From contig CBDEUV010000001.1 of the NCBI GenBank assembly GCA_965243385.1, positions 70,299-134,298 on the forward strand: a DNA stretch of 64,000 nucleotides, written 5' to 3'. A program made the translations under genes and the position numbers. This DNA is from Leptospirales bacterium. GTDB lineage: Bacteria > Spirochaetota > Leptospiria > Leptospirales > Leptonemataceae. A model generated the notes under the pieces. That model was not told the origin of the DNA. It made no database searches and saw nothing but the letters and a program-made list of their open reading frames with translations. This document shows, piece by piece, positions 16,680 to 53,670 of this stretch (position 1 is the stretch's first letter; every line of letters starts with the position of its first letter).

Positions 16680-16698
16680 AGATAGCTCCTCTCGCCAT

Positions 16699-17367
16699 CT
16701 AGGCCGGTGCTTGCATGCGGATCGCGATGGCGGGTAGATCGTGATGCGGCCGCTGGCGAATTACGATGCAGTCCGCGATATCGAGCCACTCGAAGTACGG
16801 CGCGAAGGCCGAACGGATATTATTCACGCGGCGCTCTTTTAGTTCCCGCTCGCGCGCGGGCGTTTCCGGTTTGCCCTGGTTGGTGCTGCTGATAATCAAT
16901 AAACGCGCACCGGGAGCCGCGTACGTCCGCAGCGTTCGAGCATAACACTCGTAAAAATTCACCGGCATGCCGTGCAAACAACCGCGGTCGAAAAGCGAGT
17001 GATAGATCGGCTGGTCCGCGGTATCGCGACAAATATCCACGACGTCGTACGACAGCCGGCCTTCGATTTCAGGAAAATTTTTGCGCGCGGTGTCGATGGC
17101 CGACGGAGCGACGTCGACGCCTTTCACTGCGAATCCCTGCTCCACAAGCCAGGCGGCCAGTTCGCCCCCGCCGCAACCAATGTCCAGCAACGGCCCACCG
17201 GGTACGAAAAAGCCGTCGCGGACCGCAAGGTTCAGAGCGTCGGGCACGCCGTCGACCCGCCAGAAGGGATCGTAATCTTTGCGCGACCAGCCGTATTCCC
17301 AGACGGAACTCATCTGGTCCATAGCCCAGTCGAGCCCCGCGGTTTTTTTTCCACCCGGGCCGGTCAT
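16699..17367 (-). CDS. SAM-dependent methyltransferase
   Basis: 222 aa. Motif I is 'LLDIGCGGGELAAWLVEQGFAVKGVDVAPSAI'. The start overlaps the stop of the upstream carrier gene (ATGA). Confidence 0.75.
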   Translation of the reverse strand: MTGPGGKKTAGLDWAMDQMSSVWEYGWSRKDYDPFWRVDGVPDALNLAVRDGFFVPGGPLLDIGCGGGELAAWLVEQGFAVKGVDVAPSAIDTARKNFPEIEGRLSYDVVDICRDTADQPIYHSLFDRGCLHGMPVNFYECYARTLRTYAAPGARLLIISSTNQGKPETPARERELKERRVNNIRSAFAPYFEWLDIADCIVIRQRPHHDLPAIAIRMQAPA

Positions 17368-17630
17368 GACGCACCGCTTTCGACCACGAGTTGCGATATC
17401 GCGGCGATGCTCTGAAAATTTTCGAACATGACCTGCTCGGGCGCGATCTGAATCTGGTAGTTTTCTTTGATAAAATTTATCGTTCGGATAATCGCCATCG
17501 AATCCAGAATGCCCAGAGCAATCAGATCCGTTTCCGACTCCAATTCCTCTTCGAGCGCCTCTACCAGAATTTGATCGACAATGAATTTTTTTAATCCCCC
17601 CCGGATGTCTTCCAGTACCAGGTTAGCCAT
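17364..17630 (-). CDS. Stand-alone acyl/peptidyl carrier protein
   Basis: 88 aa and acidic. The phosphopantetheine attachment context is 'LGILDSMAI'. It lies immediately downstream of the adenylating enzyme. Confidence 0.75.
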   Translation of the reverse strand: MANLVLEDIRGGLKKFIVDQILVEALEEELESETDLIALGILDSMAIIRTINFIKENYQIQIAPEQVMFENFQSIAAISQLVVESGAS

Positions 17631-17631
17631 T

Positions 17632-19251: not shown

Positions 19252-19255
19252 CGCG

Positions 19256-20992: not shown

Positions 20993-21023
20993 GATGGTCT
21001 GGCCGGAGCGGACTGCCAGCCGC

Positions 21024-22451: not shown

Positions 22452-22493
22452 CGTGATTTTCTCTTTTCCTGTACATTCAGTCGCCCGCTGCGC

Positions 22494-23678
22494 TCAGAGT
22501 CCGAGCAGGCCCGCAATCAGATTTTTTTGAATTTCGGTGGTGCCCGAATACAGCCGGCTGGCCAGGGCGTCCCTTAACTCTCGCTCAATTTCAGTTTCCT
22601 GGAGATAGCCTCTACCCCCGAAAATCTGCAGCGCGTCCAAACAGGTCTGAACATAAGCTTCACTGACGACGCACTTCACCATAGCCGCCTGCATAAAGAT
22701 CATCTCGCCCTGTTGTTTGCTCCAGGCGGCGCGGTACAGCAGGCCGCGGGCCTGCTCCAGACGCAGCTGCATGTCGACGATTTTTTCCGCGATCATCTGG
22801 TATTTGCCGATCGCCTGGCCGCCCTGCTTTCTTTTGCGTGCGAAGGCGATGCACTGCTCCATGATTCGGCGGATTGTCCCGATCGCGGGCGCCAGAATAA
22901 AAGCGCGCTCCCACTCCATAATATGATTGAATAGAGCCATGCCCGCGCCTTCGGCGCCGAGCAATCGATTCGCCGGCACGCGACAGTCTTCGAGAATTAA
23001 TTCGCCCATTTGAGCGGTGCGAACGCCCATTTTCGAATTTTTGATCACCCGGAGACCTTCCGTTTCCCGATCCACCAGAAAACAACTGATGCCGTCCGCG
23101 CCCGATCCACTTCCGGTGCGCGCGAAAACCAGAAAGATGGTCGCAACGGGCCCGTTCGTAACGAACAGCTTTCGGCCGTTTAGTATATAATCCGCGCCGT
23201 CGTTCAGGGCGCGCGTAGTCATAGCATAAATATCCGAGCCGGCCGCAGCTTCGCTCGCAGCGTGCGCTCCAATGAATTCGCCGGAGCACAGCCCCGGTAA
23301 GTACTCTGCTTTCTGGGAATCCGTTCCGAAGTGCAGAAGGGGCGTCTGACAGGCCCACATCTGCGCGTTCAAACCGAAAACCAGCCCGTTGTCGCGACAA
23401 GCGTACCCAAAGGCTTCCAGCCCGCGAATGGTCGTTAAAAGATCATATTCGCCCCCGCCGTAAACGCGGGGCACGATCGTTCCGGGAATTCCCCGGGAAC
23501 AACACTTGCGCCAGCCCTCCGCGTTAAAACTTTGCTCCGCGTCGAGAGCGATGATCTCCGAATCGATCCGGGAGTCGCGGACGAATTCCAGGATTTCCTG
23601 GTGATGCGATTCCTGCCCGGCAGACCACTCGAAATTCATGTCGGAACCCGTAACGAGAACGTCATACTCGAAAATCAC
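22494..23678 (-). CDS. Acyl-CoA dehydrogenase family flavoprotein (PltE/CloN3-like candidate)
   Basis: 394 aa with ACAD N, middle and C-terminal domains ('FIGAHAASEAAAGSD', 'FVTNGPVA', 'LQIFGGRGY', 'RLYSGTTEIQKNLIA'). The listed start is a GTG. An ATG at 23639 is an alternative. Confidence 0.85.
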   Translation of the reverse strand: MIFEYDVLVTGSDMNFEWSAGQESHHQEILEFVRDSRIDSEIIALDAEQSFNAEGWRKCCSRGIPGTIVPRVYGGGEYDLLTTIRGLEAFGYACRDNGLVFGLNAQMWACQTPLLHFGTDSQKAEYLPGLCSGEFIGAHAASEAAAGSDIYAMTTRALNDGADYILNGRKLFVTNGPVATIFLVFARTGSGSGADGISCFLVDRETEGLRVIKNSKMGVRTAQMGELILEDCRVPANRLLGAEGAGMALFNHIMEWERAFILAPAIGTIRRIMEQCIAFARKRKQGGQAIGKYQMIAEKIVDMQLRLEQARGLLYRAAWSKQQGEMIFMQAAMVKCVVSEAYVQTCLDALQIFGGRGYLQETEIERELRDALASRLYSGTTEIQKNLIAGLLGL

Positions 23679-23976: not shown

Positions 23977-25511
23977 GAATTCTGAACGCGGCGTGCGGAA
24001 TTCCTCCTGAAGGCCGTCGCAACTGAGATTTCCATGACCCCGAAGAACATCCCCCCACAGCATGGCCCGAAGCCGGCGACCGGCATGTCGGTTTTTGATT
24101 CAGCAATGAAACACGTTAGATTTAGCAAGCGTACATACAGTACAAATATAAAGGTCGCATTCTGTCTGGGACTTTTGCCGCCGGAGTTGGCCGCATTGAT
24201 TCCGTCATCCACGAGAGCGGACTGGCGAAGGCGCGGTTTCACGCATTTTTTTGGATTGAATTTCCCGGGCCCCGTACTCGGAGACGTTCAGTTCCACCGC
24301 GAATTCGTCAGCGTCCCGGCGTTGCGTGCGATCGCGAAGGCTTTGTTTCGACTGTATCGCTTTTATGCGCGCGCCACCGGGCAAATTCGGGGGGCTAAGA
24401 AATTCTGGAAAAACAATCGTGAAAAGATCGTGGCGGCAGTGCAGTCTCTGCGGCCTGCTTTTGGCTTGAAGCGCGCCTGTCGTATGCTGCGAATTACGGT
24501 TTCGAAATTCTATCGCTGGCGAGACGCGGTCGCCTGTGTTTCGTCCAGCAGAGGCGTGTGTCGCAAGCGACATCCCACCCAGATTTCGTCCGCCGAGGAG
24601 CGCGCGGTTCGCGATTACGTGAACGATCCCCGTTTCGCCGGTTTCAGTATTGTAAATATCTGGCTGCAGATGATGCGGGACGGAGCGGCGGCGTTTGGCC
24701 TCTCTACGTTTCGAAAGTACGCCCGAATGTGCGAAACCACGCCCGAAAGATTTCACAAAGCACGACCACCGGCCGGTATTCGCGCGGAGCGAAAGCTGGA
24801 GCTACTGCATATGGATAGCACGGTTTTTCATCTGGCGGATCGCCGACGCATGTGGATTCATTTGATCATCGACAATTTCTCTCGCGCGATTCTGGGCTGG
24901 CGACTGATGGAAAGCAATCGTTCGCTGGAAGTCGCGGCCAATCTGCGCGAGGTTTGCGAAACGTACAAGCTGCGCGAAAAGGGCGTCGTGGTTCTCGCGG
25001 ACGACGGTTCCGAAAACCAGGGCGCGGTCACTGAATTTCTCGCGGAGCCGGGCGGCATGGTTCGCCGACTGATCGCCCAGGTGGACATTCGGCCCTCGAA
25101 CAGCATGGTGGAAGCCGTCAACAAGGTTTTGAAAAATCAGTTTCTTTTACCGCTGAAAACCGCGTTGCGCACCGCTCGCGAGCTTGAAAAAGCGCTCGCT
25201 CAGCAAATCGAACGCTATAATCATACGCCGAAATTCGCGCTGCATGGTCTGACTCCGGCCGAAGTGCTGGCGGGGCAGATTCCCGATCCGAAAATTTTCG
25301 CTGACGCATTGAGAGACGCGCGAATCGAACGTATTGCTGTGAATCGCGCGGCAGCCTGCGGAGTTTGTTAGAACGAGCGCGAGAAAACGGGCGACCCCGA
25401 GCCGCTCAGTCTTTTTCGATACGCGGTCCCGGGTTCATTAGAGGGGGTTCGGATACCCGGATTCCGATTCTCGTTTTGGCGTGGTGAGTGCAGCGCGCCG
25501 TGCAGAATTGG
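23977..25511 (+). mobile_element. IS-like element (DDE transposase gene bracketed by related palindromic motifs)
   Basis: The transposase ORF is flanked by 'GAATTCTGAACGCGGCGTGCGGAATTC' (23977-24003) and '...GCGCGCCGTGCAGAATTGG' (25493-25511). I could not define the exact termini or a target-site duplication. Confidence 0.4.
24034..25371 (+). CDS. DDE (rve/integrase-core) transposase
   Basis: The catalytic core pattern is 'LHMDSTVF...HLIIDNFSRAILGW...VLADDGSENQG...MVEAVNKVLKNQF'. The N-terminus looks HTH-like. The true start is probably an internal ATG (e.g. MSVFDSAMKH...). Confidence 0.8.
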   Translation: MTPKNIPPQHGPKPATGMSVFDSAMKHVRFSKRTYSTNIKVAFCLGLLPPELAALIPSSTRADWRRRGFTHFFGLNFPGPVLGDVQFHREFVSVPALRAIAKALFRLYRFYARATGQIRGAKKFWKNNREKIVAAVQSLRPAFGLKRACRMLRITVSKFYRWRDAVACVSSSRGVCRKRHPTQISSAEERAVRDYVNDPRFAGFSIVNIWLQMMRDGAAAFGLSTFRKYARMCETTPERFHKARPPAGIRAERKLELLHMDSTVFHLADRRRMWIHLIIDNFSRAILGWRLMESNRSLEVAANLREVCETYKLREKGVVVLADDGSENQGAVTEFLAEPGGMVRRLIAQVDIRPSNSMVEAVNKVLKNQFLLPLKTALRTARELEKALAQQIERYNHTPKFALHGLTPAEVLAGQIPDPKIFADALRDARIERIAVNRAAACGVC

Positions 25512-25636
25512 TTGGGTCTTAGGGTGGTTGGTTTCGCCCCCGAAATGGTTTCTATTTCGCAGGGCTTCCGGCACGACTTAGTCTCGCACCTCGTGAGGAG
25601 GAAAGAATGTTCGATGCGCCTTGCTCGCCATCGGAC
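25491..25636. repeat. Cassette-flanking repeat, copy A (~146 bp)
   Basis: Aligns base-for-base, with scattered substitutions, to 28627-28771 in direct orientation. It contains a CGAAAT-N7-ATTTCG stem. It also has 'GAGGAGGAAAGA-ATG' followed by a 14-codon mini-ORF (25607-25651). Confidence 0.85.
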
Positions 25637-25657
25637 AGATTTGATGAATAAAATTCA

Positions 25658-26038
25658 TTATTGTTCCTGGTTTTCTAAAGGCCCACCAGTCTCTGCTTGC
25701 GCCGCCTCCATTTTCACCTGGCGCTCAATCAATCCAACGGACGTTCCAAGAATCACCGCGCCTGTAAAGAGCCAGACCTGAAATACTCTCTGCTTGCTGC
25801 GAAATTTTTCATGCAGTTGGAATAGACCGCCCATAATGGTTGCCAGTATGAATGGACCGAATACGCCACCACCGATTAAATACAGGAATCCATTAGGGCT
25901 GTCTGTGTCTATGACAGCGACCATAATGATCAGCAGTGGCACGCAACTCAAAAGGAGCAGAAACAAAGCGCCGAGCATCCAGAGGACATACGGTTCTTTC
26001 TCGTTTGATTTCGATTCGTTCATTTTTCTCTCAACCAA
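25658..26038 (-). CDS. Small membrane protein (3 predicted TM helices), unknown function
   Basis: 126 aa. Hydrophobic stretches include 'VLWMLGALFLLLLSCVPLLIIMVAVI', 'LYLIGGGVFGPFILATIMGGLF' and 'VWLFTGAVILGTSVGLI'. It lies between the two halves of repeat copy A. Composition is lower in GC than the surroundings. Confidence 0.5.
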   Translation of the reverse strand: MVERKMNESKSNEKEPYVLWMLGALFLLLLSCVPLLIIMVAVIDTDSPNGFLYLIGGGVFGPFILATIMGGLFQLHEKFRSKQRVFQVWLFTGAVILGTSVGLIERQVKMEAAQAETGGPLENQEQ

Positions 26039-26080: not shown

Positions 26081-26138
26081 CGACGACTTTTCGTCACCAC
26101 GCCGGGAACCAGCGCCGATGAGTTTTTGGACCTTACAC
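26081..26138. repeat. Conserved segment spanning the stop codon of a small (immunity-like) ORF, copy A'
   Basis: 'CGACGACTTTTCGTCACC...GCGCCGATGAGTTTTTGGACCTTACAC' is similar to 28803-28860. In both copies the segment's last six bases are the terminal Val and stop codons of the small ORF (minus-strand GTGTAA), and the rest is the sequence immediately 3' of the stop. Confidence 0.7.
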
Positions 26139-26570
26139 CTGCCGAGAAGGCCCTCCTGACAATTTCTGGACCCACTCGGGATTCAAGTTGGCTCTCTCTA
26201 GAATTTGCGATATTATTCTCACCTCTACCTCTTCTGGTTCAATCAACACAAATTGGGGGAGCGCGCTTTTGCGAAAAATAAAGATCACAGTGCTATCCAG
26301 GCGCGATTGCATCTCATCCACCGCATGACGCGCCAGCAGTGCAAGTTCGTCTTGTATGGGATGGTCCAACTCTAGTTTTTGAACAAGTGTTGGGTTATGC
26401 TTATCAATCAGCCACACGGACGAGCGGCCTTTCGCAAAGAACAGCTGCTTGTCTCTCGCCGGGCACATAAACAGCTCCTCTTCAGACTCAAGGTTGATCC
26501 CCTGCTTAAGCTCATTTCGAAGAGAACTGAAAAAATCTTGTATGGCCGGATCATTTGGATCGTTTATCAT
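26133..26570 (-). CDS. Putative immunity protein for the orphan toxin cassette
   Basis: 145 aa, acidic, no signal peptide. Its ATG directly abuts the toxin-cassette stop (TAAATG at 26568-26573). No recognisable family. The assignment rests on position only. Confidence 0.55.
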   Translation of the reverse strand: MINDPNDPAIQDFFSSLRNELKQGINLESEEELFMCPARDKQLFFAKGRSSVWLIDKHNPTLVQKLELDHPIQDELALLARHAVDEMQSRLDSTVIFIFRKSALPQFVLIEPEEVEVRIISQILERANLNPEWVQKLSGGPSRQV

Positions 26571-28268
26571 TTATCTTAACCTTATTCGCCTTGCAGCAAT
26601 GTCTTCAGGTATCAAGACCGAACTTTTTTGGCCGAGCCGAGAGAACATTAACCGATCGGCCACTGAAAATGAATGGTCCGTAACTGGATGAGTATGGGCT
26701 ATAACGCGCTTAACATTATGCGGGACAAAGATCTCAGTTTCCGATGTACCGAGCACTAATTGGCGTAGCCCATCGTTCGTACGAATCAGACCTACCTCTC
26801 TCCCTGTAGCAAATTGGATGTCTTTCATTATCTGGGAATTGATCTCACCACGCCCGATAGTTAGAAGGCCATCAGCCGAGTCTTCGAAATCTCGAATATA
26901 TTTTTGGGCTTCAGGGCTAATTTTGTTCCAGTTGCGCGTTGGAATCCAGTCATTTTTCGGTGAACCGAATTGCAAGTTCGAGCCTAACCGAGCCTCCGTG
27001 AGAGGGCCTGAGGCTCTGCCAAAATCGTCAATCGAATTCGCAAACCGTCGAGCCGTCCCCGCCTTCGCCGCAACACCAACGCCCGCCATCGCACTGGCAA
27101 CCTCAAAGCCTACCTGGCCGGCGTTAAACTGCCCCTGTATCCGAGCCGTAAAATTCGCCGGCTGGTAGAAGGCCTCCGGCGTTGAGGCGCCGTAAGCCAG
27201 GTTCAGTTTCGTCTTCAGGCCGTTCCAGAGACCGGAGACGTCATCTCCGAGGCTCGCCTTGCCTTCAATACGATCGGCAATTCCGCCAGAGACCTCGCCA
27301 AACACTCCTGCCAGACGGCCTACCTGACCGAGCGGATCGCTCACGAAACGCAGGACGTCCATCGCTCCCTGGCCTACCGCATTCGTGATACCACGATAAG
27401 CATTATTACCGATGTGGTAATAGGCGTTTTCATAATCGCGCGCGCCTTCCCAGCCGCCTTGTTCATAGGCATCCTTGTGCCCCTCAACTGCCTCCCGGTA
27501 CGCGGACGTGCTCGGATCGTTGAAATTCAGCACGTCATTCATCGTGTTCTGCGCCCCTCGCAACCAGTTATCCAGAGCCGAGAACGGATTGTACTTATGG
27601 TACAGACCGCCGGTTTTCAGATCCGTTTGCGAAACGCCCACTTTGCTCGTGCTGGCATAATTCATCAGCTGACCGTATTTCTGCATGCCGTACTGGTAAC
27701 CACGGAATGGAAGGGCCACTGTACTGCGACCGGCTTGAACAGCAGCGCTGCCCCATTCGCCCGCCGTCATATTGCGCGCTTGATTGTATTTGCCGGTGGC
27801 TTTGACGTCTGTGCTCTTAAGGCCCCAGTCATCGTATTTCTTCTGCAGGTAGCCCTGAGTTTTCCAGCCTGTCTGCTTGTCCACCCAGCCGGCCATTCCA
27901 TTAATCAGACCGTCTTGCAGGAGTAACCAACTGCTATCGCCGCGAGCCGCTTGCTGTTGAGCGACCTTCTGTTGCTGTTTGATCGCCGCCGCTTTCGCGA
28001 GCTCCGCCTGCTTGATTTGCTGCCGCCCGCGGTAGTCCGCGTTGATATACTTCTGATATTTATCCGCGAACTCGGTACTGAGACCTCGTTCACGCAGCTC
28101 GGCCTTCACCGCCAGTGCTTCCTTGATGCGTCCGCCCTTGTATAGTTTCTGGAACTCCTGGTTTTTCGCGTACGCGAATTCCGCGTCCGCATGCGATTGA
28201 AGCTTGCCGATGATTTCTTCGCGGCGATTCATCGAATAACCCATGCCGGCAATGATATCGCGCGCCTC
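26571..28268 (-). CDS. Orphan (5'-truncated) polymorphic-toxin C-terminal cassette with JAB/MPN-like motif
   Basis: The open frame runs to 28709, but similarity to the giant protein begins only at 'HEARDIIAGMGYSMNRREEI' (~28208-28268). The C-terminus carries 'EVGLIRT...AHTHPVTDHSFSVADRLMF' (HxHx7SxxD). No convincing start or RBS lies near the junction. Confidence 0.6.
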   Translation of the reverse strand, partial: EARDIIAGMGYSMNRREEIIGKLQSHADAEFAYAKNQEFQKLYKGGRIKEALAVKAELRERGLSTEFADKYQKYINADYRGRQQIKQAELAKAAAIKQQQKVAQQQAARGDSSWLLLQDGLINGMAGWVDKQTGWKTQGYLQKKYDDWGLKSTDVKATGKYNQARNMTAGEWGSAAVQAGRSTVALPFRGYQYGMQKYGQLMNYASTSKVGVSQTDLKTGGLYHKYNPFSALDNWLRGAQNTMNDVLNFNDPSTSAYREAVEGHKDAYEQGGWEGARDYENAYYHIGNNAYRGITNAVGQGAMDVLRFVSDPLGQVGRLAGVFGEVSGGIADRIEGKASLGDDVSGLWNGLKTKLNLAYGASTPEAFYQPANFTARIQGQFNAGQVGFEVASAMAGVGVAAKAGTARRFANSIDDFGRASGPLTEARLGSNLQFGSPKNDWIPTRNWNKISPEAQKYIRDFEDSADGLLTIGRGEINSQIMKDIQFATGREVGLIRTNDGLRQLVLGTSETEIFVPHNVKRVIAHTHPVTDHSFSVADRLMFSRLGQKSSVLIPEDIAARRIRLR

Positions 28269-28617
28269 ATGGTCACTACGCAACACCCAGATCGCGCACG
28301 CTTCACTTCCTGTGAAGAGCGCTGCGACGACTCGCCTTCCTGGCTCGTCGGCTGGGTATTGCTTCGTTCTCGTTTGGGGCGAATCCCCCGCCCGGCTTCG
28401 CCGGCCAGGGGACCGGGCCGCTACGGGCTCCGCGTTCGCTACGGTCCTTCGCTTGGGTACTTCCAAACACTCGAAGTATTTCTGCAGATTTCGCCCGCTA
28501 CGGACTCGCACTTCGTGCGACCCTGCACGTCCCTTTCGCTTGCTCTTCGCAGCGAAAGAACTGCCAATTAAGGGTGACTGACCGCTTCGCGGCCCTGGTA
28601 AACATTTGATTGGATCT

Positions 28618-28646
28618 CCAATTCTGCACGCGCCGTGCAGAATTGG
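28618..28646. repeat. Perfect palindrome (13-bp stem, 3-nt loop)
   Basis: 'CCAATTCTGCACG-CGC-CGTGCAGAATTGG'. Degenerate relatives sit on both sides of the transposase gene, at 23977-24003 and 25493-25511. Confidence 0.85.
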
Positions 28647-28771
28647 TCGTATTTTTGGATGGTTGGTTTGGCCCCCGAAATGGTTTTTATTTCGAAGGGC
28701 TTTCGGCACGACTTAGTCTCGCGCCTCGTGAGGAGGAAAGAATGCTCGATGCGCCTTGCGCGCTATCGGAC
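28627..28771. repeat. Cassette-flanking repeat, copy B (~145 bp)
   Basis: Direct repeat of 25491-25636. It has the same stem and the same SD+ATG with a 14-codon mini-ORF (28742-28786). It is nearly contiguous with the post-immunity segment 28803-28860. Confidence 0.85.
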
Positions 28772-28854
28772 TGTTTTGCTGGGTGAGATTCATTTTACAA
28801 CACGACGGTTTTTCGTCACCAGACAAAGGGAGGGCGCCGATGACTTTTTGGGCC

Positions 28855-29415
28855 TTACACATTTTGGATCTCACCATATACTTCTTCAATCCGTTCCTTA
28901 AAATATGGTGCACTTTTCTTGACCTTATTCTTGAAGTAGTCAGGATTTTTGTCCCAAGGATCATGCACGGCTGCACGCTCGCGCAATAGTCGATCAACTT
29001 CATCCGCCAGGTCGTCGTCTTCGTCTATTATAAAGAAGCTGAAAGCATCTACGGCCGTGTAGTGGACTCCAGTGGAATTGGGGAGAAAACCAAGAGTACG
29101 GATCATTCCCTCTCCTGCGACCAATTCGCGAAAAGAATCGAACGACAGTTCAACTTGAGGGAGCGCGCTCGGATGTTCTATTGCATGGATGCGCTCCAGA
29201 TATGCCACAGCTAATTTCTCATTTGCGTCCGAATCAAATTGCACTGCCTCAAATTGGTCTGTCACGAAGTATCGCGAATTTGAGGGTGATTTAATTGATG
29301 AGGGATAGAATTTACCCTCCTGATCTAGATATATGGGAGGCTGGTAACAAAGAATCAGATTTTGTTCGTCGATTATCTCATTTGCAATCTGAGTAATATT
29401 TCTACTCCGCACCAT
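28855..29415 (-). CDS. Putative immunity protein, paralog 2
   Basis: About 186 aa, starting at the ATG at 29415 (AAGGTGG upstream). It aligns along its length with the 184-aa ORF at 29484-30038. Examples: 'NSRYFVTDQFEA' vs 'DSRYFMTDQYEV', 'GMIRTLGFLPNS' vs 'GMLRTIGFLGNS', 'FSFFIIDEDDDL' vs 'YSFYVIDEDDEL'. Confidence 0.6.
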   Translation of the reverse strand: MVRSRNITQIANEIIDEQNLILCYQPPIYLDQEGKFYPSSIKSPSNSRYFVTDQFEAVQFDSDANEKLAVAYLERIHAIEHPSALPQVELSFDSFRELVAGEGMIRTLGFLPNSTGVHYTAVDAFSFFIIDEDDDLADEVDRLLRERAAVHDPWDKNPDYFKNKVKKSAPYFKERIEEVYGEIQNV

Positions 29416-29483
29416 AACCACCTTTTAGAGGAACACGTATGACCTTTTTAGATCCTGCAGATGACGAATTTCTCGCGCTTTAT

Positions 29484-30038
29484 CTATTCACAAAAGGTAT
29501 TCAGTACGTTCTCTATCCGATCAGACGGATAACCCGCATCGAATAGCTTCTTGCCTTCGAAATACTCTGATATATTGTCCCAGACATTTCTGATTCCGGC
29601 CTCCTGTCTTAGCCGAGTCTTAACCGCATCGTACAGTTCATCATCCTCATCTATCACGTAGAAACTATACGCATCAACAACTGTACGCAGCGAATTCCCC
29701 AAAAAACCAATGGTCCGAAGCATTCCGGGACCCTCCAGGTAGTTTCGAGCTACTTCCTTCGTTGGCCGCGAATCTGGCATCGGAGATGGATTATCCAGTG
29801 CAAGGACACGCTCTATGCTGGCCAAGGTAAACCTTTTTGCTTCCTCGTCTGGGAAGCTAGCGACCTCATATTGATCTGTCATGAAATACCTCGAATCGTT
29901 CGGGTCATCACCGTTTTGCGGCGCATAGAAGCCATTTGAATCAACGAAAGCCGGAGTATTGCAGCAGAGTATCAACGATTCCTCGCTGATTGTTTTTTCC
30001 ACTATTCGATTCAAAGTATTAGAGTCTCTTGATTTCAT
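29484..30038 (-). CDS. Putative cognate immunity protein of the giant toxin, paralog 1
   Basis: 184 aa, cytoplasmic-looking and acidic. Its ATG overlaps the giant ORF's stop (ATGA at 30035-30038), implying translational coupling. Confidence 0.65.
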   Translation of the reverse strand: MKSRDSNTLNRIVEKTISEESLILCCNTPAFVDSNGFYAPQNGDDPNDSRYFMTDQYEVASFPDEEAKRFTLASIERVLALDNPSPMPDSRPTKEVARNYLEGPGMLRTIGFLGNSLRTVVDAYSFYVIDEDDELYDAVKTRLRQEAGIRNVWDNISEYFEGKKLFDAGYPSDRIENVLNTFCE

Positions 30039-33000
30039 CTCAGATTCCTCACAACCTCAACTCCCCCAATATCGTCGATCAGTATTTTCACTGCATTCTG
30101 GCTCTTAAGCCCCAGGTCCTTAAACCGTCTCGCAGAGGCCTCACTCCAGCGATACAGTTGGCCATCAAATATCACGTCTAAACTATTTAGCTTACCGCCG
30201 CTGGCTCGTCGTGCGTAAGAAAAGAAATCGAAATCTGCTTTGGACGGGCCGCCATAGTTAAAATGCGTATGTACCGAGACATCGGTGGACTTATCTGCAA
30301 ACATTCGAATACTACGCTTCGTCAGATTTCCAGCTTCATCGTAATGATTCACGCCTCTCTTCAGCCAGAGCTTTCCTTTGAATCTAAACATTCCCCACTC
30401 ATGCTGAGTATGCTTCGCAAGATGTTGCAACTGTCGTACGCTCAGCGCCTCTGAAATTTCCAGCCCATCCTCAAACTTATTGAGCATGAAATCGACGGAA
30501 CGCTGCCCGGGCTGCCTGGGACTCCTAACACCCTGCACTCCCTGACGCATTTTACGCGCGTCGCCAAACCAGCCTTTCGCGAGGCTATCGCCATACGTCT
30601 CCTGGACCAATCGGCCCCGACCAGTCCCGGACAGGGAAGCCCCGGTCAGTCGCGATTCAAGCGTCGCGGCAAGGCGCTCTGTTCGCAGCGCATTCCGAAC
30701 CTGCCCAAACCTGGCCGGGTTACCATACGCCAACCCAACCCGGCCGCCGTTGCGCGCTAGCAGAACCGAGCGACTCACCGCCGCAGCTCCTCTCAGGGCT
30801 GTGGTCGCGATCTTGCCGGCACCCCACGTCGCGACCGCTTCGCCGACGAATATCGCAGTATTGCCGATCATCCGGCCCGTGTCAATCGCACTCTGCGTGC
30901 CGTAGTACAGCGCCGCGTTCAACGCCTGGTCGTTCGATCCGAATCGATTCAGTTGCTGCAGCTCCCGCACTGGCTTGTAGTGATTCACTATGTCCTGGTT
31001 TACGTGCGCGGAATTTCGATGATACGTATCTTTCCAGCCGCCGTCCGCCTGGCCTACTGCCCATTGTGCCGTCGTCGCAATGCCCCATCCGATCTTGCGA
31101 ATCGTCGTCTGGTAGTCGAAGAGCGCGTTCTTGACTCCAATCCATTTCGCCGTGCTGTTCTGCGCCATTTCGATGCGGTTCGGTTTGAACACAGTATCGT
31201 AGTTGCTGACTTCGCCTGGCCTCAATACGCCCAACTCCGCCCGGCGGCGGGCTGCGTTTCGGTCATAGCTCGGGTTCCGGCGTCCGCGCCAGGCCCGCTG
31301 GCCGGCTTTGTATGCGTTTTCGTAACGTTCCTGCTCAGCGATCGCCGCGATCGGACTCTCAAATCCGTTCTGGCGCGCGGCCATGTATTCGTTATATGCT
31401 TCTTCGCTGCCGAGGATCCGGATGCCGCGATCTCGCTGGCTTTCGCGGTTGTAACGTCCTGCATGTCCGCCGGGACGCCGTTCGATTTGCGCCGATAGCC
31501 TGCGGTATTCCATGACACGGCCGTGTTTTTCCACGAGTGCTTTCTGCTGCGCCTGCGCTTGTTCTTGCGCGATACGCTCCTGACGCTCCACATACGCTTT
31601 GCCGTACTTCGCAATTGCGATCGCCCGCGTGTTGCCGCTCGTGTTCAGTGCTGAGCGATAAGAGTCTACCTTCTTCGCCATCCCGCGAATGTCATAGCCG
31701 GCCAGCGCAGCTTCCTTCAGGAAAGCATTTGTCTGGCCGGTGGTCTGCTTCATGAACAGCTCTGAGTCAAACTTGGCTTCCAGTTCCGCGAAGCTCTTCA
31801 CTCCGTGTTTCGCGAGCAGTGTTTCCTGCCGATCGATTGTGCCGAAGATCTCTTCGCGGCGGTTCATCGAATAGCCCATACCGGCTATGATGTCGCGGGC
31901 TTCATGTTTCTGCCCATTTCGCAGCGCGTCGCGTGCTTGCTGAATTTTACGTTCGGTTGCCTGCCGGTCCTGTTCGGCACGCGCCTCGTTCAGCTTTGTA
32001 CTGAGCCCAATTCCACCCAGCGCGCCGAGTCGCCCGCCGTCCACGTTATACATCCCCATGAAGCCGCTCTGGTCCGCACCCCAGGCTCTGTACTTTCCGT
32101 ATTCGCTGGCCACTCCGAAAGCTGTCGATGCTCCGTCCTGCGCGAGTCCTGCCGCGAAGCCGCCGATCTTTTGATCCTGCAGATGCGCTCCTACCGCGCT
32201 GCCCAGCAGGCTACCGCCGACCGCCAGCGCCGCACTGGCGCCCTGGTTCCCTGCGAAATTGAAGCCCTGGAGTGTGCCATCCGCACCGTAATTCGCACCG
32301 GCTCGAACTGCGGCGCTCGTTGCGCCGGCAATCGCATTCATTGTTGTCACTGTGCCCTGAGCCGCCCGACCCAGTTCCACCATCTTCGCACCGGCACCGC
32401 CAATGAATGAAGTGGCGGTCACCAGCGCGGTATCCATCGCCGCCTGGTCCGTCATCTTCATCATGCGCTCGCCGGTCGTGGGGTTCACCTGGATCGAGTT
32501 CGCGATTCCCGTAATCGCCATACCGGCAGCCGCCACGAGCAGTCCCAGAGGCCCGGTCGCTACCGTCATCGCGGCGCCGATGCCTGTGACCACACCGCCG
32601 GCTGCTGCAAGCGGCGCTTTAATCATGTTCAGGCTCTGCGCTTCCCACATGTATCCACGGCTCTTGCCGTTTACCTGTGCCGCGATCTCTACGTTTTTAT
32701 AACTATTCGCCATCATCAGCGGAACGTTATACTGATTTAAGAACGTGCCGGCCATTACGCCCACGTCTGCGAGGACTGTGTTCTGGAACGGGCCGAATGC
32801 GACTCCGGGATCCGCCGCCTGCGCCAGTGCTTTGCTATCGCCCTGTCCTGTTAAACGACCCGCCAGTTCCAGCTGCGGATAGAATCCCAACGGCGCTCCA
32901 CCGGGCCGCACGCCCATCACGCCCTGTTCGCCGAAGCCGGCGAAGCCCACGTATTTCAGCGCTGTTAAAGCATTGCCGCCGTCTGCCAGATCGATCTTCG

Positions 33001-36000
33001 CGGCCTGCACTGCATTGCTGGCCAGCTGCGATTCGCCGTTCGCTCCACCGGGCGCGCGTCCTGCCCACGTTCCGAAGCGGCCGATGATTTCTTCATCCTG
33101 ACTTTCGCGGCGCTCTTCCTGAGTGCCACGCCCCATCAAGACTTCATAGACGCGTTGTAACGCCAGCTTCTGAACGTGAAAGAAGGCCTCCACTTCCACA
33201 TCATCTTTGCCCGCCAGGAACGTCGTCAGCTCTCCGCCGTCCATTTCCTTGAAGCCGGACTTATCCAGCTCTTCGCGCAGTACGCCTGCGGTGTCGAAGT
33301 ACGAATACGCATTCACGACTCCCAGTGCGTCTGATATATTACCCGATTTTACAAAAAACGCGCCGCTGCGTACAAAGCCTGCATTAAACGCCGCTGTCTG
33401 CGTCTGCTGGTCGATGATCGCGTTCTGGTCTTCCAGCTGAGCCGCGAAACCATCAAAGAGCTTTCTGTACTCCTCGAATACTTTCACATTCGCGAGAACC
33501 TTCAGGTTCTTCGCGTGCAGCCTGAGCGCTTCACGATAATCCGCATCCACCCCTGTGATCGCTGAACCGAGGTTGGCGCCGGTCAGTTCGGATACGCTCA
33601 AGCGCGTTTTGAAATCCTTGATGTTGTTATTAATCTTCTGGAATTTCTCCGTGAAGCTCGGCTTATCGTTCTCCAGCCCGGCCAGAATTTCATTCACGTA
33701 CGCCGTCGTGCTGATCGAAGCCATATTCGCGCCCATATTCTGGTTCGCGATCGCAATCTGGTTATTCAGTTCGTTTACGGACTGAGTTAATACTGCCGTC
33801 AGATTCTCTTCGCTCGAACGATCACGGACATCCTGCTCCCACTGTTCTTTCTTCTCAAAGTGCTCCGCAATCTGCTCATCCCACTTCCGATTTCCTTCAG
33901 CCTCGTCGTTATCGAGCTTCCGCTCCCACTCACGCCACTCTTGTAAGAAGCGGTTCTCAGCGTTGCCCCATGAACTGCGACCGCGCGCAAGCAGCAGATC
34001 CATCTTTCGCTCCCACTCTTCGTAGCGGTCTTGCAGCTCCTGCTCGCGGAGGTCCCACTCTTTTTCCTGCACGACTACGCGCTGCTGTAGTTCGGCGTCG
34101 AACACATCGCTCTGGTTTTCCACGTAATCCGCGTGGGTCAGCCGGTAGCCGGTGTATTCCCGGCCGCCCTGGTCTTGGTCCGTGGCCTGTCCGTACAGGT
34201 TCTCGTATGTGGCGTCGCGTTCCTGGTAAAGGAACGTGGTATCCACTGTCGCTGCTGCGCCGGCTGCGAGATAACGTTGCTTTCTGTCGTTGCGTAGATC
34301 CGTTCCGTGCTGGACCAGCATATCCATGATGCTGCCCATATTATAAGCGTCTTCCAGCGGTTCGCTATCGTCGATGATGCGTGCGTATTGGTAAACGGTA
34401 CCACCATTATTCTGCATCGCTCGGACTCGCGTATAACGCTGGCCACCGATGATATAGGCGTTGCCGTCGCGCGGTCCGCCGACTGACGTAAGAGTCGAAG
34501 GATCGTAGCGTCGGCCGAATGCGTCTTTGTATGTGACCTGGTCTTTGAAGCCGTCGACATCCAGCGCGTCGTTTTGCTCTTCAGCGGTCAGCGTCTGTGC
34601 GGCTCCGGTTTGTGTTTGATAGACGGGATCGCCGTTGCCGTCTCTATCGAAGAGATATTTCAGATCTTCATCTGTGAGATCGTACAAGTTGTTGGCGCTG
34701 TCGTTATCGCCGTGCTGCGCGCCCCATTGCACCATCCGCTCTTTCAGACTTTGCATATCCGGGACTTTGCTGAAATAGTCCACCGCGGCCTGTGCGTCTT
34801 CGTATTCCGCCTGCTTCGCACGTACATCGTTGATCTGTGGCATGAATCCGGCGTTAAACGTCGCCGCCCCCATGAATAGCATACTGAACAGCGCCACCAT
34901 GTACTGCGCCTGGCTGATGATCATCTGGCTTTGCGCGTACGTGATCTGAGCCATACCCGCCGCGCGCATCGTCGCGGTGATAGCGGTTGCGGCTACGGCC
35001 GTGTACGGGTTCGCGGAGAGCGTCGCCTGTAACGCGCTTGCTGCGGCGATCATCGCTACCCCCGCGGCCATGACTGTTGCCATGAGCGTTTGCGTGATGG
35101 CGTTTCGGATCAGATCCAGATCATGCGCCATGATGGTCATCAAATAGCCGGTGTATACTCCCTGGAATCCGGAGAAGGCTGCCAGGTTGCCGCCGGTTCC
35201 TAACCACAGACCGATCGCATTCTGATCGCTGGCGGGCATGAGCGCCGCGCCCAGAATGCCGCTTGATGCTTCCAGCACCTGCCCAGGTGTGATCTGCACC
35301 TGCGTTCCACCGAGTGCTGCGCCGTATGCGGCCTGCCCGACGCTTCCTGCCCATGCTCCTGCGCCCCAAAACCACGATCGGAATTCGTTGACGTAATTGA
35401 TGTCGCCGGTTTCTGCCTGCGCGGCCATGCGCATGTAGACTGCATCGCGGGCGGCCATGATTTCCGGGTCATTCTTCTGGGCTGCGTTTACCTGGAATAC
35501 ACTGTCCAGTTTCGCATAGAATTGTTGTTTCTTTTCATCTAGGACGCTTTGTCTGCGCTGCATCTCGGCTTCGATGATTTCTTCCGCCTTATGAATGCGG
35601 ACCATTCTCATCGTATGTTTAATATGTTCGGCGCGCGCCGTGATTACATCCGCGTAGCGTTCGTACATCTCGCGGTGGGTCAGCTCTTGCAGTTCCGTTT
35701 CTTCGGCGGCTGTGAGCGTTTCGTTGTCCGTGAATTTCCGGTCGCGCAGTTCGAGCAAGCGATCGCGCTCTGTCGCTCCCAGCGGCGGGTAGCTTTGATT
35801 TGCTTCGATGCCGGTTACGATCTGGTAGAAATCCCCCAGATTGTCCTGCGTTTGCACGTTATACGCGGCCGTTTGCAGGCTGGCGTTGGCCTGGTCGAGT
35901 ACGGCCACGGCTCTGCGATACTCTTCGCGGGCATTATTCGCCCAATCTTCGATCGTGGCGTTTTCGTCTTCCCCGTCGTTAATCAAATACGGTGTTTCGG

Positions 36001-39000
36001 CGTAGTCCTGAATGCTGCGCCGCATTTCATATTCGCCGTTCGCGGCCTGATAGTTGCGGTACCGGGACGCCATCTCGTTCAGCGCGTTGACGTGATTCTG
36101 ATTCGCGATGGCGTATGCGTTCCGCAGGGCGTTTTCCTGGTCGCTCAGATTGCCCAGCGTGGTCTGCGCGAGATCGAATTCGTCGGCGATCGGCTGCATG
36201 ACGTTGTTCAGGTACGCCACCTGCCCGATGGTCCGGATCTGGTTTCGGCGGCCGGCGTCGGCGAATTGTTCGCCGTTGCGTAATACGGTCGCGAGGCCTT
36301 GCTCGATCGCTTGTTGCTTTTCGCCGATCTGCAGCTGGCCGTGGGCCGCGAGTCTTGCTGTCGCGTCCTGTTCGATGGTCTGCAGTACGGTGAGGTCGTT
36401 TACGCCTGCGGTTGCGTTTGCGTCGTAGCCGGTGAGTTGCTGCGCGATGCGTTCGTCGGGCGGTGTGGCACGTCTTGCGTCGGCCATCTGCGTGGCGTTG
36501 AAGATATTCGCGAAGGCCGCGTTCAGATTGCTGGCGGCTTCCAGATAGTTATTCGCGAGATGTTCTCTAAACGTATACTGCAGCTCGACGTTGTAATCCG
36601 CGTTTGTGCGATTGTTCGGATTCGCCACGGTGCGGATTCGTTTGAAATCAACGGTGATATCGTCGTCCGGATTCGCGGTATCGGTTCCCAGATCGACTGT
36701 ACCGGCAATCGCTGCGTCGTCTGATAGGAGGAGGTCTTCCCAGTTGGCGTTATCGAAGAGCGTATTCGGATCCAGGTTCAGGCTGTCTGCCGCGAAGATC
36801 TGGCCGTTGTGGTATTCCTCGAAAGTCTTTGGACTGCCGCTGGTGACGTGGTCCTGTTCCTGGTATGTGCGTTCCGTTCCGATATACGTGCGATAGTGCG
36901 CGAAGCGACTCGCAAGCAGATCGTCGCCCACGCTGTTTGCGAAGTCCTTCAGTCGGTTCGTCAGCTCGCGCTCGCGGGCGTATTCGCGTTCTTTGTTCTT
37001 TAAGTAGCGGCTGTGGTCCGCTACGGTTCCCTGCAATGCTTGCGTGAGTTCCTGCATCACGGCCGCGGTTTCCGCCTGGCGGATGCTCGTGCCGTAGCTC
37101 GGTCCTATTTTCTGGAACGGATCGAGTAAGCCGGGATCGGTTAAGATCTCGTCGATATAGTTGCGTTCGACGTCGGTCTCCATCAATTGCGTGAGATAGC
37201 GATCGATTAAGACGGCTTCTTTTTCCGCGAGTTCACGCACGGCCGGGTTGGCCTGTTGCGCGGCGGTTTCCAGTAGCGTCTGCAGTCCGGGGATTCCGCC
37301 CAATAACGTCGCGCTTTCCGCACTTAAGCTGCCGCGCACGCCGGCTTCGACCTGCAGCGCTTCTAAGTACGCGCGCATGATCCCGTTGCGGTTCTGGCGC
37401 GCCGCCTGCAGTTGCGTATCATCCGCGGTGCGGTTGATATAGGCGAAGGCCCCGGCTTCGAACGCGTCGAAAATACCGCTGGCGGCTAACTCCTGCGCAC
37501 TCTTCACGTCGAAGGCGGTCTGGTAGTCGGCGATATTCGCCACTAAGGCCGCGCTGTCGGTTGCGCCCAGCGCAGTCCAGATCGCGGTTTGCAGCTGATC
37601 GAAGGCGGTCTGTTGCGTCGCGCTCATGCCGGCGTACAGCGCGGGTGTGCCGCCCTGACTTCTGCTCACGAGCGCTGCTAAGAATTCGCCGCGGTTTTCT
37701 TTGGCGGCTTGCTGTAGTTCGCCGTTTCCTTGCGCCAGTTCGGCGAAGAAGGTGTTCTCAACTTTCGCGTAGCGTTCGCCCTGCGCTGCGTAGAAATTGT
37801 TCAGCTGCTGGCGGTCAGCTTCGTTCGGCAGCAATTCGCGCAATACTCGATCCTGTCGCAGCACGTTTAACGGTGCAGTGGTTTGCCCTTGCGATGCGAG
37901 CACCGCCGCGCTGTGGTTCGCGCGGATCATATTCAGGAGCTGCGTGCGATCCGCGCCTGCGGTCGCGCCGTATCCCGCGCGATTTAGCACGGCTTCGGCT
38001 TCCGCGTCGCTCAAAAAGAGGCCGCTGGCGTTCGAGTTGCCGCCGTTCGCCGCAAGTAACACGTCCAATCGGCCGAGTTCTTCGGCGAAGCGTGCGTCCA
38101 CTGCGGCCGCCATCGCTTTGTGGTCAGCGGTCGTGTAGCCTGCGATATTCGTTAAATCATCCGGCAGATATTCGTTCGCTGTCCTCACGGCGTTATTCAA
38201 TTCGCCGGCCGTGCGTAGATCATCCAGATAAGCGGGTAGATATTCTTCAGTCGCCGTTCCGTTTTCGATGGCGTTGAAGCTCAATAATTCGAAGGCTTCC
38301 AGTTGCGACTTCGCGAGCAGGCGCTGCCTTAAACTCTCGCCGCCGCGAGTATAGGCCGCGTCGTCCAGCACCGCTTCGAAGACCGCCTCGAATTCCGTCT
38401 GGCGATCGGCGACGGTTGCTCCGGAGAAGGTGACGCCGTTGCGGGCGATATAGTCGCGCACCATGCTCAAGACGATCACCGGCCGGAATTCGCCGGCGTA
38501 TTCGGTTTCGTTCAGGGTATACGCGTTGTCCGGCGTGGTCGCCAGTCGCTGGTATTCGCGTTGCGCCAATTGTTCAAACAACGTCGCGTATCCCGCGCCT
38601 AGCAGCTCCGGGCTCGTGCCGCGGTCGATCATATACTCTTCTATATAGCTGGCGATCCCGCGTCCGCCGTTCTCTTCGGCTCCGGCGATGTACGTCGCGT
38701 AGTCATTCGCCGCTAAATAGTCCGCGAAGTCCTGCACGGCCAGGGATCGCGCCACGTCGCCCAGCAGACCGCGCAGATCAAGCGCTGCGGCGGCGCGTTC
38801 GCTCTCCACGTCCGAATTCTTGCGCGCGAGATAGTCGGCGTAGCGTTGCTGGCCCGCTTCGTACTGGCGCACCAGTACGATTTCGCGCAGTTCCGCCGGA
38901 TAGTCCGCGGCTTCGTACGTATCGGCGTACTGCGCGGTGATCACAGCAGTGCGCAGGCTGCGCGCGTACAGATCGTCTTCGAGCGCTACGGTCGCCGTGG

Positions 39001-53643: not shown

Positions 53644-53670
53644 AGGATTCGTCTCTTTGCTTTACTCGCG

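What the first reader, a model, noticed from the sequence alone, without database searches (positions are those of the whole stretch)
31843..31906. Conserved junction (HEARDIIAGMGYSMNRREEI) marking the swappable C-terminal module
About 65 nt at 31843-31906 in the giant gene align with 28207-28272 in the orphan; most positions are identical by eye. Sequence on either side is unrelated (5' side) or highly diverged (3' side). This is the behaviour of the VENN (CdiA) or PxxxxDPxGL (Rhs) demarcation motifs, which serve as homologous-recombination handles for toxin-tip replacement. The motif here is different from those, and I do not recognise it.
Basis: seen in the sequence. Interest (0 to 1): 0.7.

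Follow-up and report, generated by a model that had tools for sequence, protein, structure and literature searches.

The report
Junction motif of giant spirochete toxins
A 20-residue peptide shared by a 5,088-residue Leptospirales protein and a promoter-less gene fragment downstream marks where a family of giant bacterial toxins changes from a conserved body to interchangeable toxin ends, like the junction motifs of other polymorphic toxins but in an undescribed family.

Summary
HEARDIIAGMGYSMNRREEI is encoded twice on the minus strand, at 31847-31906 in the 5,088-aa gene and at 28212-28271 at the head of an orphan. The DNA is 58/67 identical. All 8 differences in the 20 codons are synonymous.

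It is a family feature. An exhaustive HMMER search found 94 relatives, 14 of them giants of 3,800-5,020 aa, named only in Leptospirales/Leptospiraceae/Spirochaetales MAGs. The peptide is the second helix of a roughly 33-residue predicted helix-turn-helix, about A[RQ]xAxxxGxKxxAxxILxGLGYxxxRRE. Before it, 67% of sequence pairs are similar. After it, 1.6% are. Four pairs that are 69-81% identical upstream lose similarity inside or just after this hairpin.

Relatives carry AHH and Tox-REase-7 toxin tips and Imm11 or Imm33-like neighbour genes. This is therefore a polymorphic toxin family, and the window's orphan plus its 145-aa neighbour is a spare cassette.

The motif matches no Pfam pre-toxin domain.

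The "recombination handle" reading is unproven. The longest exact DNA run is 11 nt, conservation acts on the peptide, and three assemblies show no recombinant.

In four loci, toxin-immunity cassettes ride primase/tyrosine-recombinase elements. That is an open lead on how the ends move.

The parts
30035..45301 (-). Giant toxin gene, 5,088 aa. Residues about 200-4200 are collinear with 17 other giants at about 35% identity.
   Evidence: sources name Leptospirales MAGs
31946..32653 (-). Conserved pre-toxin domain, aa 4217-4452. It has a hydrophobic Gly/Ala-rich hairpin, the block NSIQVNPTTGERxxKMTDQAA, and the block EYGKYRAWGADQSG. Many short relatives begin at its first residues (YMWEAQ).
   Evidence: structure model is helical but of low confidence
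31847..31945 (-). Junction hairpin, aa 4453-4485. This is the last conserved island of the family, about A[RQ]xAxxxGxKxxAxxILxGLGYxxxRRE. It is predicted as helix, turn (NGQ), helix.
   Evidence: pLDDT 77-90 over this stretch
31847..31906 (-). The reported peptide HEARDIIAGMGYSMNRREEI, which is helix 2 of the hairpin. The DNA repeat runs over 31840-31906.
30038..31846 (-). Resident variable C-terminal region, 603 aa. It is unrelated to the ends of the other giants.
30038..30532 (-). Resident toxin tip, the last 165 aa. It has conserved E, HxH, S and D residues resembling a JAB signature. The fold was not confirmed.
29484..30038 (-). Candidate immunity gene, 184 aa. Its start overlaps the giant's stop. 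GC is low (0.46).
28855..29421 (-). Paralogue of the 184-aa gene, 188 aa, 39% identical.
28618..28794 (.). Repeat D1b, beginning with a palindrome. It is 87% identical to 25489-25659.
28272..28617 (-). Stretch upstream of the orphan. It is open in frame but shows no coding signal and no similarity to the giant.
28212..28271 (-). Orphan copy of the peptide. Similarity to the giant starts exactly at its His codon.
26571..28211 (-). Orphan C-terminal region, 546 aa plus stop. Its tip has the same E/HxH/S/D signature. It has no credible start codon.
26133..26570 (-). Candidate immunity gene of the orphan, 145 aa, abutting the orphan's stop codon.
25658..26038 (-). Small ORF, 126 aa, with weak sub-threshold matches to membrane-protein families. 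It lies at the end of the orphan cassette.
25489..25659 (.). Repeat D1a, the partner of D1b.
24034..25371 (+). rve-type transposase gene, flanked by copies of the D1 palindrome at 23978-24002 and 25489-25511.
45298..46254 (-). 318-aa ORF with a signal-peptide-like N-terminus. It overlaps the giant's start by 4 nt. Four other giant loci have an ORF in the same position overlapping the start; a fifth has one that does not overlap.

Best explanation
The giant gene encodes a polymorphic toxin of a family so far seen only in uncultured Leptospirales and related spirochetes. About 4,200 residues form a conserved, mostly helical body. A conserved pre-toxin domain of about 250 residues follows. It ends in a helix-turn-helix hairpin, and the reported peptide is the second helix of that hairpin.

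Everything after the hairpin is a variable module of about 200-650 residues. This module is made of mosaic linker or entry segments and a toxin tip of about 150 residues. It is paired with an immunity gene directly downstream.

The fragment at 26571-28271, together with the 145-aa gene after it, is a silent spare cassette that keeps only helix 2 of the hairpin.

New toxin ends join the conserved body by recombination whose breakpoints fall in or next to the hairpin. The peptide is conserved because the protein needs it there. Plausible roles are closing off the pre-toxin domain, or presenting the variable module for release or translocation. The DNA likeness between cassettes is a by-product of that constraint, and offers at most microhomology.

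Shown here: the family, the breakpoint, the toxin and immunity domains in relatives, and the orphan's anatomy. Inferred: that exchange actually happens at this locus, the enzyme responsible, and the peptide's function in the protein.
For: Family:
- 94 relatives were found, 14 of them giants.
- The only source names are Leptospirales, Leptospiraceae or Spirochaetales MAGs.
- All 17 other giant sequences cover aa about 200-4200 of the window's giant. None covers aa 4601-5088.

Breakpoint:
- phmmer alignments of about 25 relatives end at query positions 593-610, which is the motif's end.
- After cutting at the motif, 333/496 pairs are similar (E < 1e-5) in the 248 aa before it, against 8/496 after it. 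The 33 C-terminal regions fall into 24 clusters.
- Column conservation peaks at aa 4456-4483 and then stays at background.
- P0038/P0070, P0021/P0032, P0052/P0059 and P0020/P0026 are 69-81% identical before the motif and 22-27% after it. Similarity is lost at the hairpin turn in two pairs, right after RRE in one, and about 12 aa later in one.

Toxin and immunity:
- AHH, 50 bits, in P0092, followed by an Imm11 gene.
- Tox-REase-7, 26.4 bits against a cut-off of 25, in P0019.
- An Imm33-like gene overlaps the end of the giant P0012.

Orphans:
- In the window, the orphan follows the resident toxin and two immunity-like genes in the same orientation.
- A second case occurs in L013/L014, downstream of the giant P0026.

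Peptide-level selection: 0 non-synonymous and 8 synonymous differences in the 20 codons, pS 0.65.

Foreign origin of the cassettes: GC3 is 0.43-0.53 for the immunity-like genes, against 0.71 for the giant's body.
Against: - No recombinant was seen. Three assemblies of the locus are identical to the window or differ by a single gap.
- The orphan's C-terminal region has no other copy in 5.8 billion proteins.
- The longest exact DNA match between the two motif copies is 11 nt, which is poor for RecA-type recombination.
- The motif HMM misses 7 of 18 giant sequences. Two of those are 3'-truncated. The junction is therefore not universal in the wider family.
- The window's own immunity-like genes match no known immunity family.
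- The resident tip's activity is unknown.
- No secretion route is identified.
- An IS and IS-related palindromes flank the orphan, so its 5' limit could be due to IS damage.
Confidence: 0.75

Rival explanations
1. The exchanged unit is larger than the part after the motif. Whole toxin ends (pre-toxin domain, hairpin, variable region and immunity gene) are cargo of a family of mobile elements that carry a primase and a large tyrosine recombinase. These elements bring the ends into genomes, perhaps by integrating at the 3' end of a giant gene. On this reading the hairpin is conserved only for protein function and is not the crossover site.
For: - Four independent loci (L001, L008, L009, L015) have the same layout. 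The order is Xre-type HTH gene, DnaG/Toprim primase, tyrosine recombinase of 620-838 aa, ParA and/or ParB, small ORFs, then a 668-801 aa motif-bearing toxin gene and a downstream gene.
- L009 has two such units in tandem, with a 165-nt 90% repeat after each immunity-like gene.
- At least nine non-redundant short relatives begin at giant-equivalent aa about 4212-4233.
- In L001 the DNA-level similarity starts exactly at YMWEAQ.
Against: - The 5' limits differ between loci. They fall at giant-equivalent aa 4122 in L009, 4217 in L001 and L015, 4466 in the window's orphan, and about 45 aa before the motif in L013. No single attachment point is visible.
- No element was seen next to a giant gene in seven giant loci (and the window).
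- Pairs with nearly identical pre-toxin domains and unrelated ends show that exchange also happens at the hairpin itself.
Confidence: 0.15
2. The orphan is only the wreck of a second giant gene, or of an older toxin end, cut down by insertion-sequence activity. The shared peptide then reflects common descent and protein constraint alone. The fragment has no role as a reserve cassette.
For: - An rve transposase gene lies 1.2 kb beyond the cassette. The palindrome that flanks it also lies 350 nt upstream of the orphan.
- The orphan's similarity begins inside the conserved hairpin, not at its edge.
- One MAG carries two giant genes, so paralogues exist.
- No recombinant is seen in three assemblies.
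Against: - The orphan keeps 566 codons without a stop, and an intact gene abuts it.
- It lies directly after the resident toxin-immunity genes in the same orientation, as classical orphan arrays do. The same layout recurs in L013/L014.
- Its 5' limit coincides with the place where two closely related pairs lose similarity, the hairpin turn.
Confidence: 0.1

Closest known systems
CdiA toxins with the VENN pre-toxin motif (PT-VENN, PF04829) and orphan cdiA-CT/cdiI modules
   Same: - A very large conserved protein with a short conserved peptide at the start of a variable C-terminal region.
- A cognate immunity gene directly downstream.
- 5'-truncated orphan toxin-immunity pairs further downstream.
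- A variable region that is itself composite. Segments just after the motif are shared between ends that carry different tips, as with the entry domains of CdiA-CT (from my own knowledge).
   Different: No TPS secretion domain, filamentous haemagglutinin repeats, VENN motif or CdiB partner is present. The body is helical and acidic. The junction is a helical hairpin of about 33 residues. The hosts are spirochetes.
Rhs/YD-repeat toxins with the PxxxxDPxGL demarcation motif
   Same: A conserved core, a sharp demarcation motif, variable toxin tips with immunity genes, and orphan tips.
   Different: No YD/RHS repeats are found; the only match is noise at E = 0.22. In Rhs the motif is part of an aspartyl autoprotease site (from my own knowledge). 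No protease signature or cleavage evidence exists here.
Pre-toxin TG domain (PT-TG, PF14449) of polymorphic toxins (Zhang et al. 2012, PMC3482391)
   Same: A helical, partly hydrophobic domain placed before toxin modules and holding a conserved TG. The giant's pre-toxin domain has NPTTGE.
   Different: Pfam reports no PT-TG match in the giant at E <= 0.1. The only match is a sub-threshold one in the variable region of relative P0093, 17.3 bits against a cut-off of 23.5.
Tox-JAB-2 / DUF4329 toxin tips (Zhang et al. 2012, PMC3482391)
   Same: The paper gives the signature as E, H[ST]H, S, D. Both tips in the window have E, then HTH, then S-x-x-D.
   Different: The Prok-JAB match is below threshold (15-17 bits against 25). 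No DUF4329 match is reported. A fairly confident model (pLDDT 80, pTM 0.73) finds no JAB/MPN structure in the PDB.
Phage 21 / e14 integration into the E. coli icd gene, where the element supplies a replacement 3' end (from my own knowledge)
   Same: This is a precedent for the novel reading: an integrating element that carries an alternative 3' end for the gene it enters.
   Different: No integration into a giant gene was observed here. This is an analogy only.

Membership tests
Polymorphic toxin system (sense of Zhang et al. 2012) | Homologues share a long N-terminal and central region but differ in the C-terminal region | tested here: met
   17 giants cover aa about 200-4200 and none covers aa 4601-5088. 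67% of pairs are similar before the motif against 1.6% after it.
Polymorphic toxin system (sense of Zhang et al. 2012) | C-terminal tips include recognised toxin domains | tested here: met
   AHH in P0092 (50.4 bits, cut-off 22.3) and Tox-REase-7 in P0019 (26.4 bits, cut-off 25). The window's own tips are unclassified.
Polymorphic toxin system (sense of Zhang et al. 2012) | Immunity gene immediately downstream of the toxin | tested here: met
   An Imm11 gene follows P0092. An Imm33-like gene overlaps the end of the giant P0012. In the window, small ORFs abut both the resident and the orphan ends but match no known immunity family.
Polymorphic toxin system (sense of Zhang et al. 2012) | Stand-alone or orphan C-terminal cassettes near the full-length gene | tested here: met
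   Window 26133-28271. L013 27410-28880, downstream of the giant P0026.
Polymorphic toxin system (sense of Zhang et al. 2012) | Toxicity of the tip and protection by the neighbouring gene | not testable with these tools
   This needs expression experiments.
CdiA / two-partner secretion toxins | TPS domain, haemagglutinin repeats, VENN motif, CdiB gene | tested here: not met
   Neither half of the giant has a relevant Pfam or NCBIfam match. The neighbouring genes are unrelated.
Rhs / YD-repeat toxins | YD repeats and PxxxxDPxGL before the tip | tested here: not met
   No RHS match reaches significance. The junction sequence is different.
PT-TG pre-toxin domain (PF14449) | Match to the Pfam model at or above its gathering score | tested here: not met
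   The giant has no match at E <= 0.1.
JAB/MPN metallohydrolase (Tox-JAB-2 type) | Catalytic signature E, HxH, S, D | tested here: met
   In the alignment of five tips, E45, H90, S97 and D100 are invariant. The first His of HxH is present in four of the five.
JAB/MPN metallohydrolase (Tox-JAB-2 type) | Profile match or fold match to JAB/MPN | tested here: not met
   Prok-JAB scores 15.1 and 16.8 bits against a cut-off of 25. Foldseek against the PDB gives no match with E <= 0.001.

The most novel reading that the evidence does not exclude
Toxin ends of these giants are moved by a dedicated family of elements that carry a primase and a large tyrosine recombinase. Each element carries a ready-made replacement 3' end (pre-toxin domain, hairpin, toxin and immunity gene). 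It inserts at the end of a giant gene, re-arming it in one step and pushing the old end downstream as an orphan. That would be site-specific toxin-tip replacement, not replacement by homologous recombination.
Probability: 0.15. Interest if true: 0.75.

Novelty: new member of a known kind. Interest (0 to 1): 0.5.

Why it matters
Polymorphic toxins are a main means of bacterial competition and kin discrimination. They are well described in proteobacteria, firmicutes and bacteroidetes, but I found no description of this family in the spirochete order Leptospirales (two literature searches).

This locus defines a family of toxins of about 5,000 residues. It has no recognisable secretion domain, a new junction motif, and mostly unclassified toxin tips and immunity genes. 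The motif HMM gives a practical handle for collecting new toxin and immunity domains from marine and other metagenomes.

The pairs that are about 80% identical up to the hairpin and unrelated after it offer a clean system for asking where and how toxin ends are exchanged. The link with primase/recombinase elements, if it holds, would add a new route for spreading toxin-immunity cassettes.

Tried and rejected
- **DNA pattern scans.** I scanned for a degenerate pattern encoding ARDIIAGMGY. The 185,579-species genome set gave one chance match in an Oscillospiraceae MAG (ASDIIAGMGY in a non-homologous context). The metagenome set gave none. The exact peptide is therefore rare, and the source genome is not in those sets.
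- **Word-indexed protein searches.** These were nearly empty. The junction region found only P0001. A profile of the pre-toxin domain returned only P0004, probably because its Gly/Ala-rich words flooded the candidate list. The orphan found only itself.
- **Annotation libraries.** Pfam and NCBIfam give nothing relevant for the giant, the orphan or the window's immunity-like genes. Rfam finds nothing in the window. There are no tRNA genes.
- **Pre-toxin domain structure.** The model has low confidence (pLDDT 65, pTM 0.38). Its PDB matches are generic helical membrane proteins with E > 0.4. I draw no fold conclusion from it.
- **Tip structure.** The tip model finds no PDB match. Sequence searches of the PDB also find nothing.
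- **D1 repeat.** I tested it as a structured RNA. One copy has a z-score of -3.3 and the other -0.5, so it is not convincing.
- **Promoters and terminators.** The scan around the orphan is at chance level.
- **Single fixed attachment point.** I rejected this for the mobile elements because the 5' limits of their toxin genes differ.
- **Shared upstream partner.** I rejected this for the ORFs that overlap the giants' starts, because BLAST finds no similarity among them.
Full report
**1. The observation**

The window carries a 15.3-kb gene on the minus strand (30035..45301, 5,088 aa). Downstream, on the same strand, is an ORF at 26571..28709. The peptide HEARDIIAGMGYSMNRREEI is aa 4466-4485 of the giant (nt 31847-31906) and recurs at nt 28212-28271.

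- The DNA repeat spans 67 nt and is 58/67 identical. blastn against the window gives E = 2e-17.
- BLASTP gives 21/24 identical residues, E = 5e-10. Otherwise there is only a 25% match over 169 aa, E = 0.005.
- Upstream of the orphan's His codon there is no similarity to the giant. That stretch lacks the third-position GC excess of coding DNA (GC3 0.56 against 0.71 in the giant).

**2. Selection acts on the peptide, not the DNA**

In the 20 shared codons there are 8 differences. All are synonymous, over 12.3 synonymous sites (pS 0.65). None is non-synonymous. The longest exact DNA run is 11 nt. The two copies are therefore old and diverged, and the DNA likeness is what an invariant peptide forces.

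**3. The peptide belongs to a family-wide feature**

A word-indexed search with the junction region found one relative, P0001. It is 58% identical over 269 aa, and the similarity stops right after HQARDIIAGMGYTGARREQM.

An exhaustive HMMER search with the last 1,200 aa found 94 relatives, 14 of them 3,800-5,020 aa long. The only source names are Leptospirales, Leptospiraceae and Spirochaetales MAGs. Two relatives come from ocean metagenomes. All 17 other giant sequences align with aa about 200-4200 of the window's protein at about 35% identity. None reaches aa 4601-5088.

**4. The peptide sits at a breakpoint**

- About 25 phmmer alignments end at query positions 593-610, which is the end of the motif.
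- I cut 32 sequences at the motif. In the 248 aa before it, 333/496 pairs are similar at E < 1e-5. In the regions after it, 8/496 are. The 33 C-terminal regions form 24 clusters.
- Column conservation shows an island at aa 4456-4483, about A[RQ]xAxxxGxKxxAxxILxGLGYxxxRRE. A variable linker precedes it, and background follows it to the end.
- The structure model is confident only over this stretch (pLDDT 77-90). It shows a long helix, a turn at NGQ, and a second helix that is the reported peptide.
- An HMM of the island finds it in 49 relatives and in 11 of 18 giant sequences. Between 27 and 652 aa follow it (median about 460), and the lowest values probably reflect truncated fragments. It is common in the wider family but not universal.

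**5. Evidence of actual exchange**

Four pairs of relatives are 69-81% identical in the 190 aa before the motif and 22-27% identical after it, which is noise level for such alignments. Their alignments show where similarity is lost:

- at the hairpin turn in P0021/P0032 and P0052/P0059;
- right after RRE in P0038/P0070;
- about 12 aa later in P0020/P0026.

The window's orphan begins four residues after the turn. Breakpoints therefore cluster in the hairpin. This is protein-level evidence. I did not have the DNA of these pairs.

**6. These are toxins**

- Relative P0092 ends in an AHH nuclease domain and is followed by an Imm11 gene.
- P0019 ends in Tox-REase-7.
- The giant P0012 is followed by an overlapping Imm33-like gene.
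- By eye, other ends look like HNH, PD-(D/E)xK, papain-like and L,D-peptidase domains (sequences printed). Pfam did not confirm these, so I do not rely on them.
- The segments just after the motif, and a middle segment, are shared between ends with different tips (P0074). The variable region is therefore mosaic.
- The window's two tips share E, HxH, S and D residues, as in the Tox-JAB-2 signature given by Zhang et al. 2012 (PMC3482391). However, the Prok-JAB match is below threshold. A model with pLDDT 80 also finds no PDB match. Their activity is unknown.

**7. Layout of the locus**

Reading along the minus strand:

- the giant gene;
- a 184-aa gene whose start overlaps the giant's stop;
- a 188-aa paralogue, 39% identical;
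- repeat D1b;
- about 350 nt with no coding signal;
- the orphan, 566 codons without a stop;
- a 145-aa gene abutting it;
- a 126-aa ORF with weak sub-threshold membrane-protein matches;
- repeat D1a;
- an rve transposase gene on the other strand.

The immunity-like genes have GC3 of 0.43-0.53 against 0.71 for the giant's body, which suggests foreign origin. A 60-nt similarity follows both the 188-aa and the 145-aa genes.

Three assemblies of this locus match the window at 99.99-100% identity in the same arrangement. The orphan's end has no other copy in the protein collection. A second giant-plus-orphan layout exists in a marine MAG. There the giant P0026 is followed by a 361-aa gene, an IS3 element, and an ORF that starts about 45 aa before a variant junction motif.

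**8. How it most likely works**

The hairpin closes the conserved pre-toxin domain, and the variable module starts after it.

Conservation of the peptide points to a role in the protein. Plausible roles are a structural cap or hinge, or a site for release or handover of the toxin module. I could not test these.

Exchange breakpoints cluster here for one of two reasons. The constrained coding sequence may offer microhomology. Alternatively, only fusions at this domain boundary may give working toxins and so survive. The data do not separate these two.

Classical RecA recombination between the two copies in this window looks inefficient, given 87% identity and runs of at most 11 nt.

**9. A lead that cuts across the simple picture**

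In four independent loci, motif-bearing toxin genes of 668-801 aa lie in one type of mobile element. These genes carry the pre-toxin domain, hairpin and variable end, and have downstream partner genes. The element has an HTH gene, a primase, a large tyrosine recombinase and ParA and/or ParB. L009 has two units in tandem, with a 165-nt repeat after each partner gene.

The toxin genes' 5' limits differ between loci, and none of the seven giant loci shows such an element next to the giant. I therefore rank integration-driven tip replacement as a minority reading.

**10. Comparison and novelty**

In behaviour this matches the VENN and PxxxxDPxGL junctions. In sequence and context it belongs to none of the known families. 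Two literature searches turned up nothing on such toxins in Leptospirales.

I class it as a new member of a known kind. It is useful and moderately interesting, and it does not change the concept.

Noticed in passing
L001 1-13000; L008 1-10350; L009 1-21172; L015 1-12773: One family of mobile elements carries motif-bearing toxin genes with downstream partner genes. The elements have an Xre-type HTH gene, a DnaG/Toprim primase, a tyrosine recombinase of 620-838 aa, ParA and/or ParB, and small ORFs. L009 holds two units in tandem, with a 165-nt 90% direct repeat (1673-1837 and 13168-13328) after each partner gene.
   Followed up: partly
window 25489-25659 and 28618-28794: A repeat of about 170 nt (87% identical) brackets the orphan cassette. 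It begins with the palindrome AATTCTGCACGnnCGTGCAGAATT. The same palindrome flanks the rve transposase gene at 23978-24002 and 25489-25511. There is no Rfam match and no convincing fold.
   Followed up: partly
window 28855-29421 and 29484-30038: Two tandem paralogous immunity-like genes (39% identical) follow the giant, with no toxin fragment between them. A 60-nt similarity lies just downstream of the 188-aa and the 145-aa genes (28803-28860 and 26081-26138).
   Followed up: partly
window 45298-46254; L010 9297-10004; L011 3556-4176; L012 9144-10007; L013 9136-10008: In these five loci the giant gene is preceded by an ORF of 206-318 aa that overlaps the giant's start codon by 4-8 nt. In the three I translated (window, L010, L011) it has a signal-peptide-like N-terminus. 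BLAST finds no similarity among them.
   Followed up: partly
L006 3611-8286; L010 2394-5048; L013 1-6148; window 59506-63956: RND pump, membrane-fusion and outer-membrane-factor genes recur near giant genes in three loci. In L010 and L013 they come with Big_5, TPR and FGE-sulfatase genes. The window has AcrB-type genes about 14 kb upstream of the giant. A role in export is unknown.
   Followed up: no
window 52786-54639: ParA and ParB genes lie 7-9 kb upstream of the giant. The source contig is 380,518 bp and its name ends in '_c'. It may be a circular secondary replicon, similar in size to the second chromosome of Leptospira. This is my own inference.
   Followed up: no
L013 and L014 27410-28880: A second orphan-like ORF lies downstream of a giant (P0026, whose variable end has a LysM domain), after an IS3 element. 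Its junction motif is a variant, ANQNDQNRRSAGLLQGWQFWKD, shared with P0063 (E = 6e-8). This suggests sub-types of the junction.
   Followed up: partly
window 9708-23678: A 2,323-aa ORF is followed by genes for a methyltransferase, an AMP-binding enzyme, a B12-binding radical SAM protein, a tryptophan-halogenase-like flavoprotein and an acyl-CoA dehydrogenase. It looks like a natural-product biosynthesis cluster. I did not analyse the 2,323-aa ORF.
   Followed up: no
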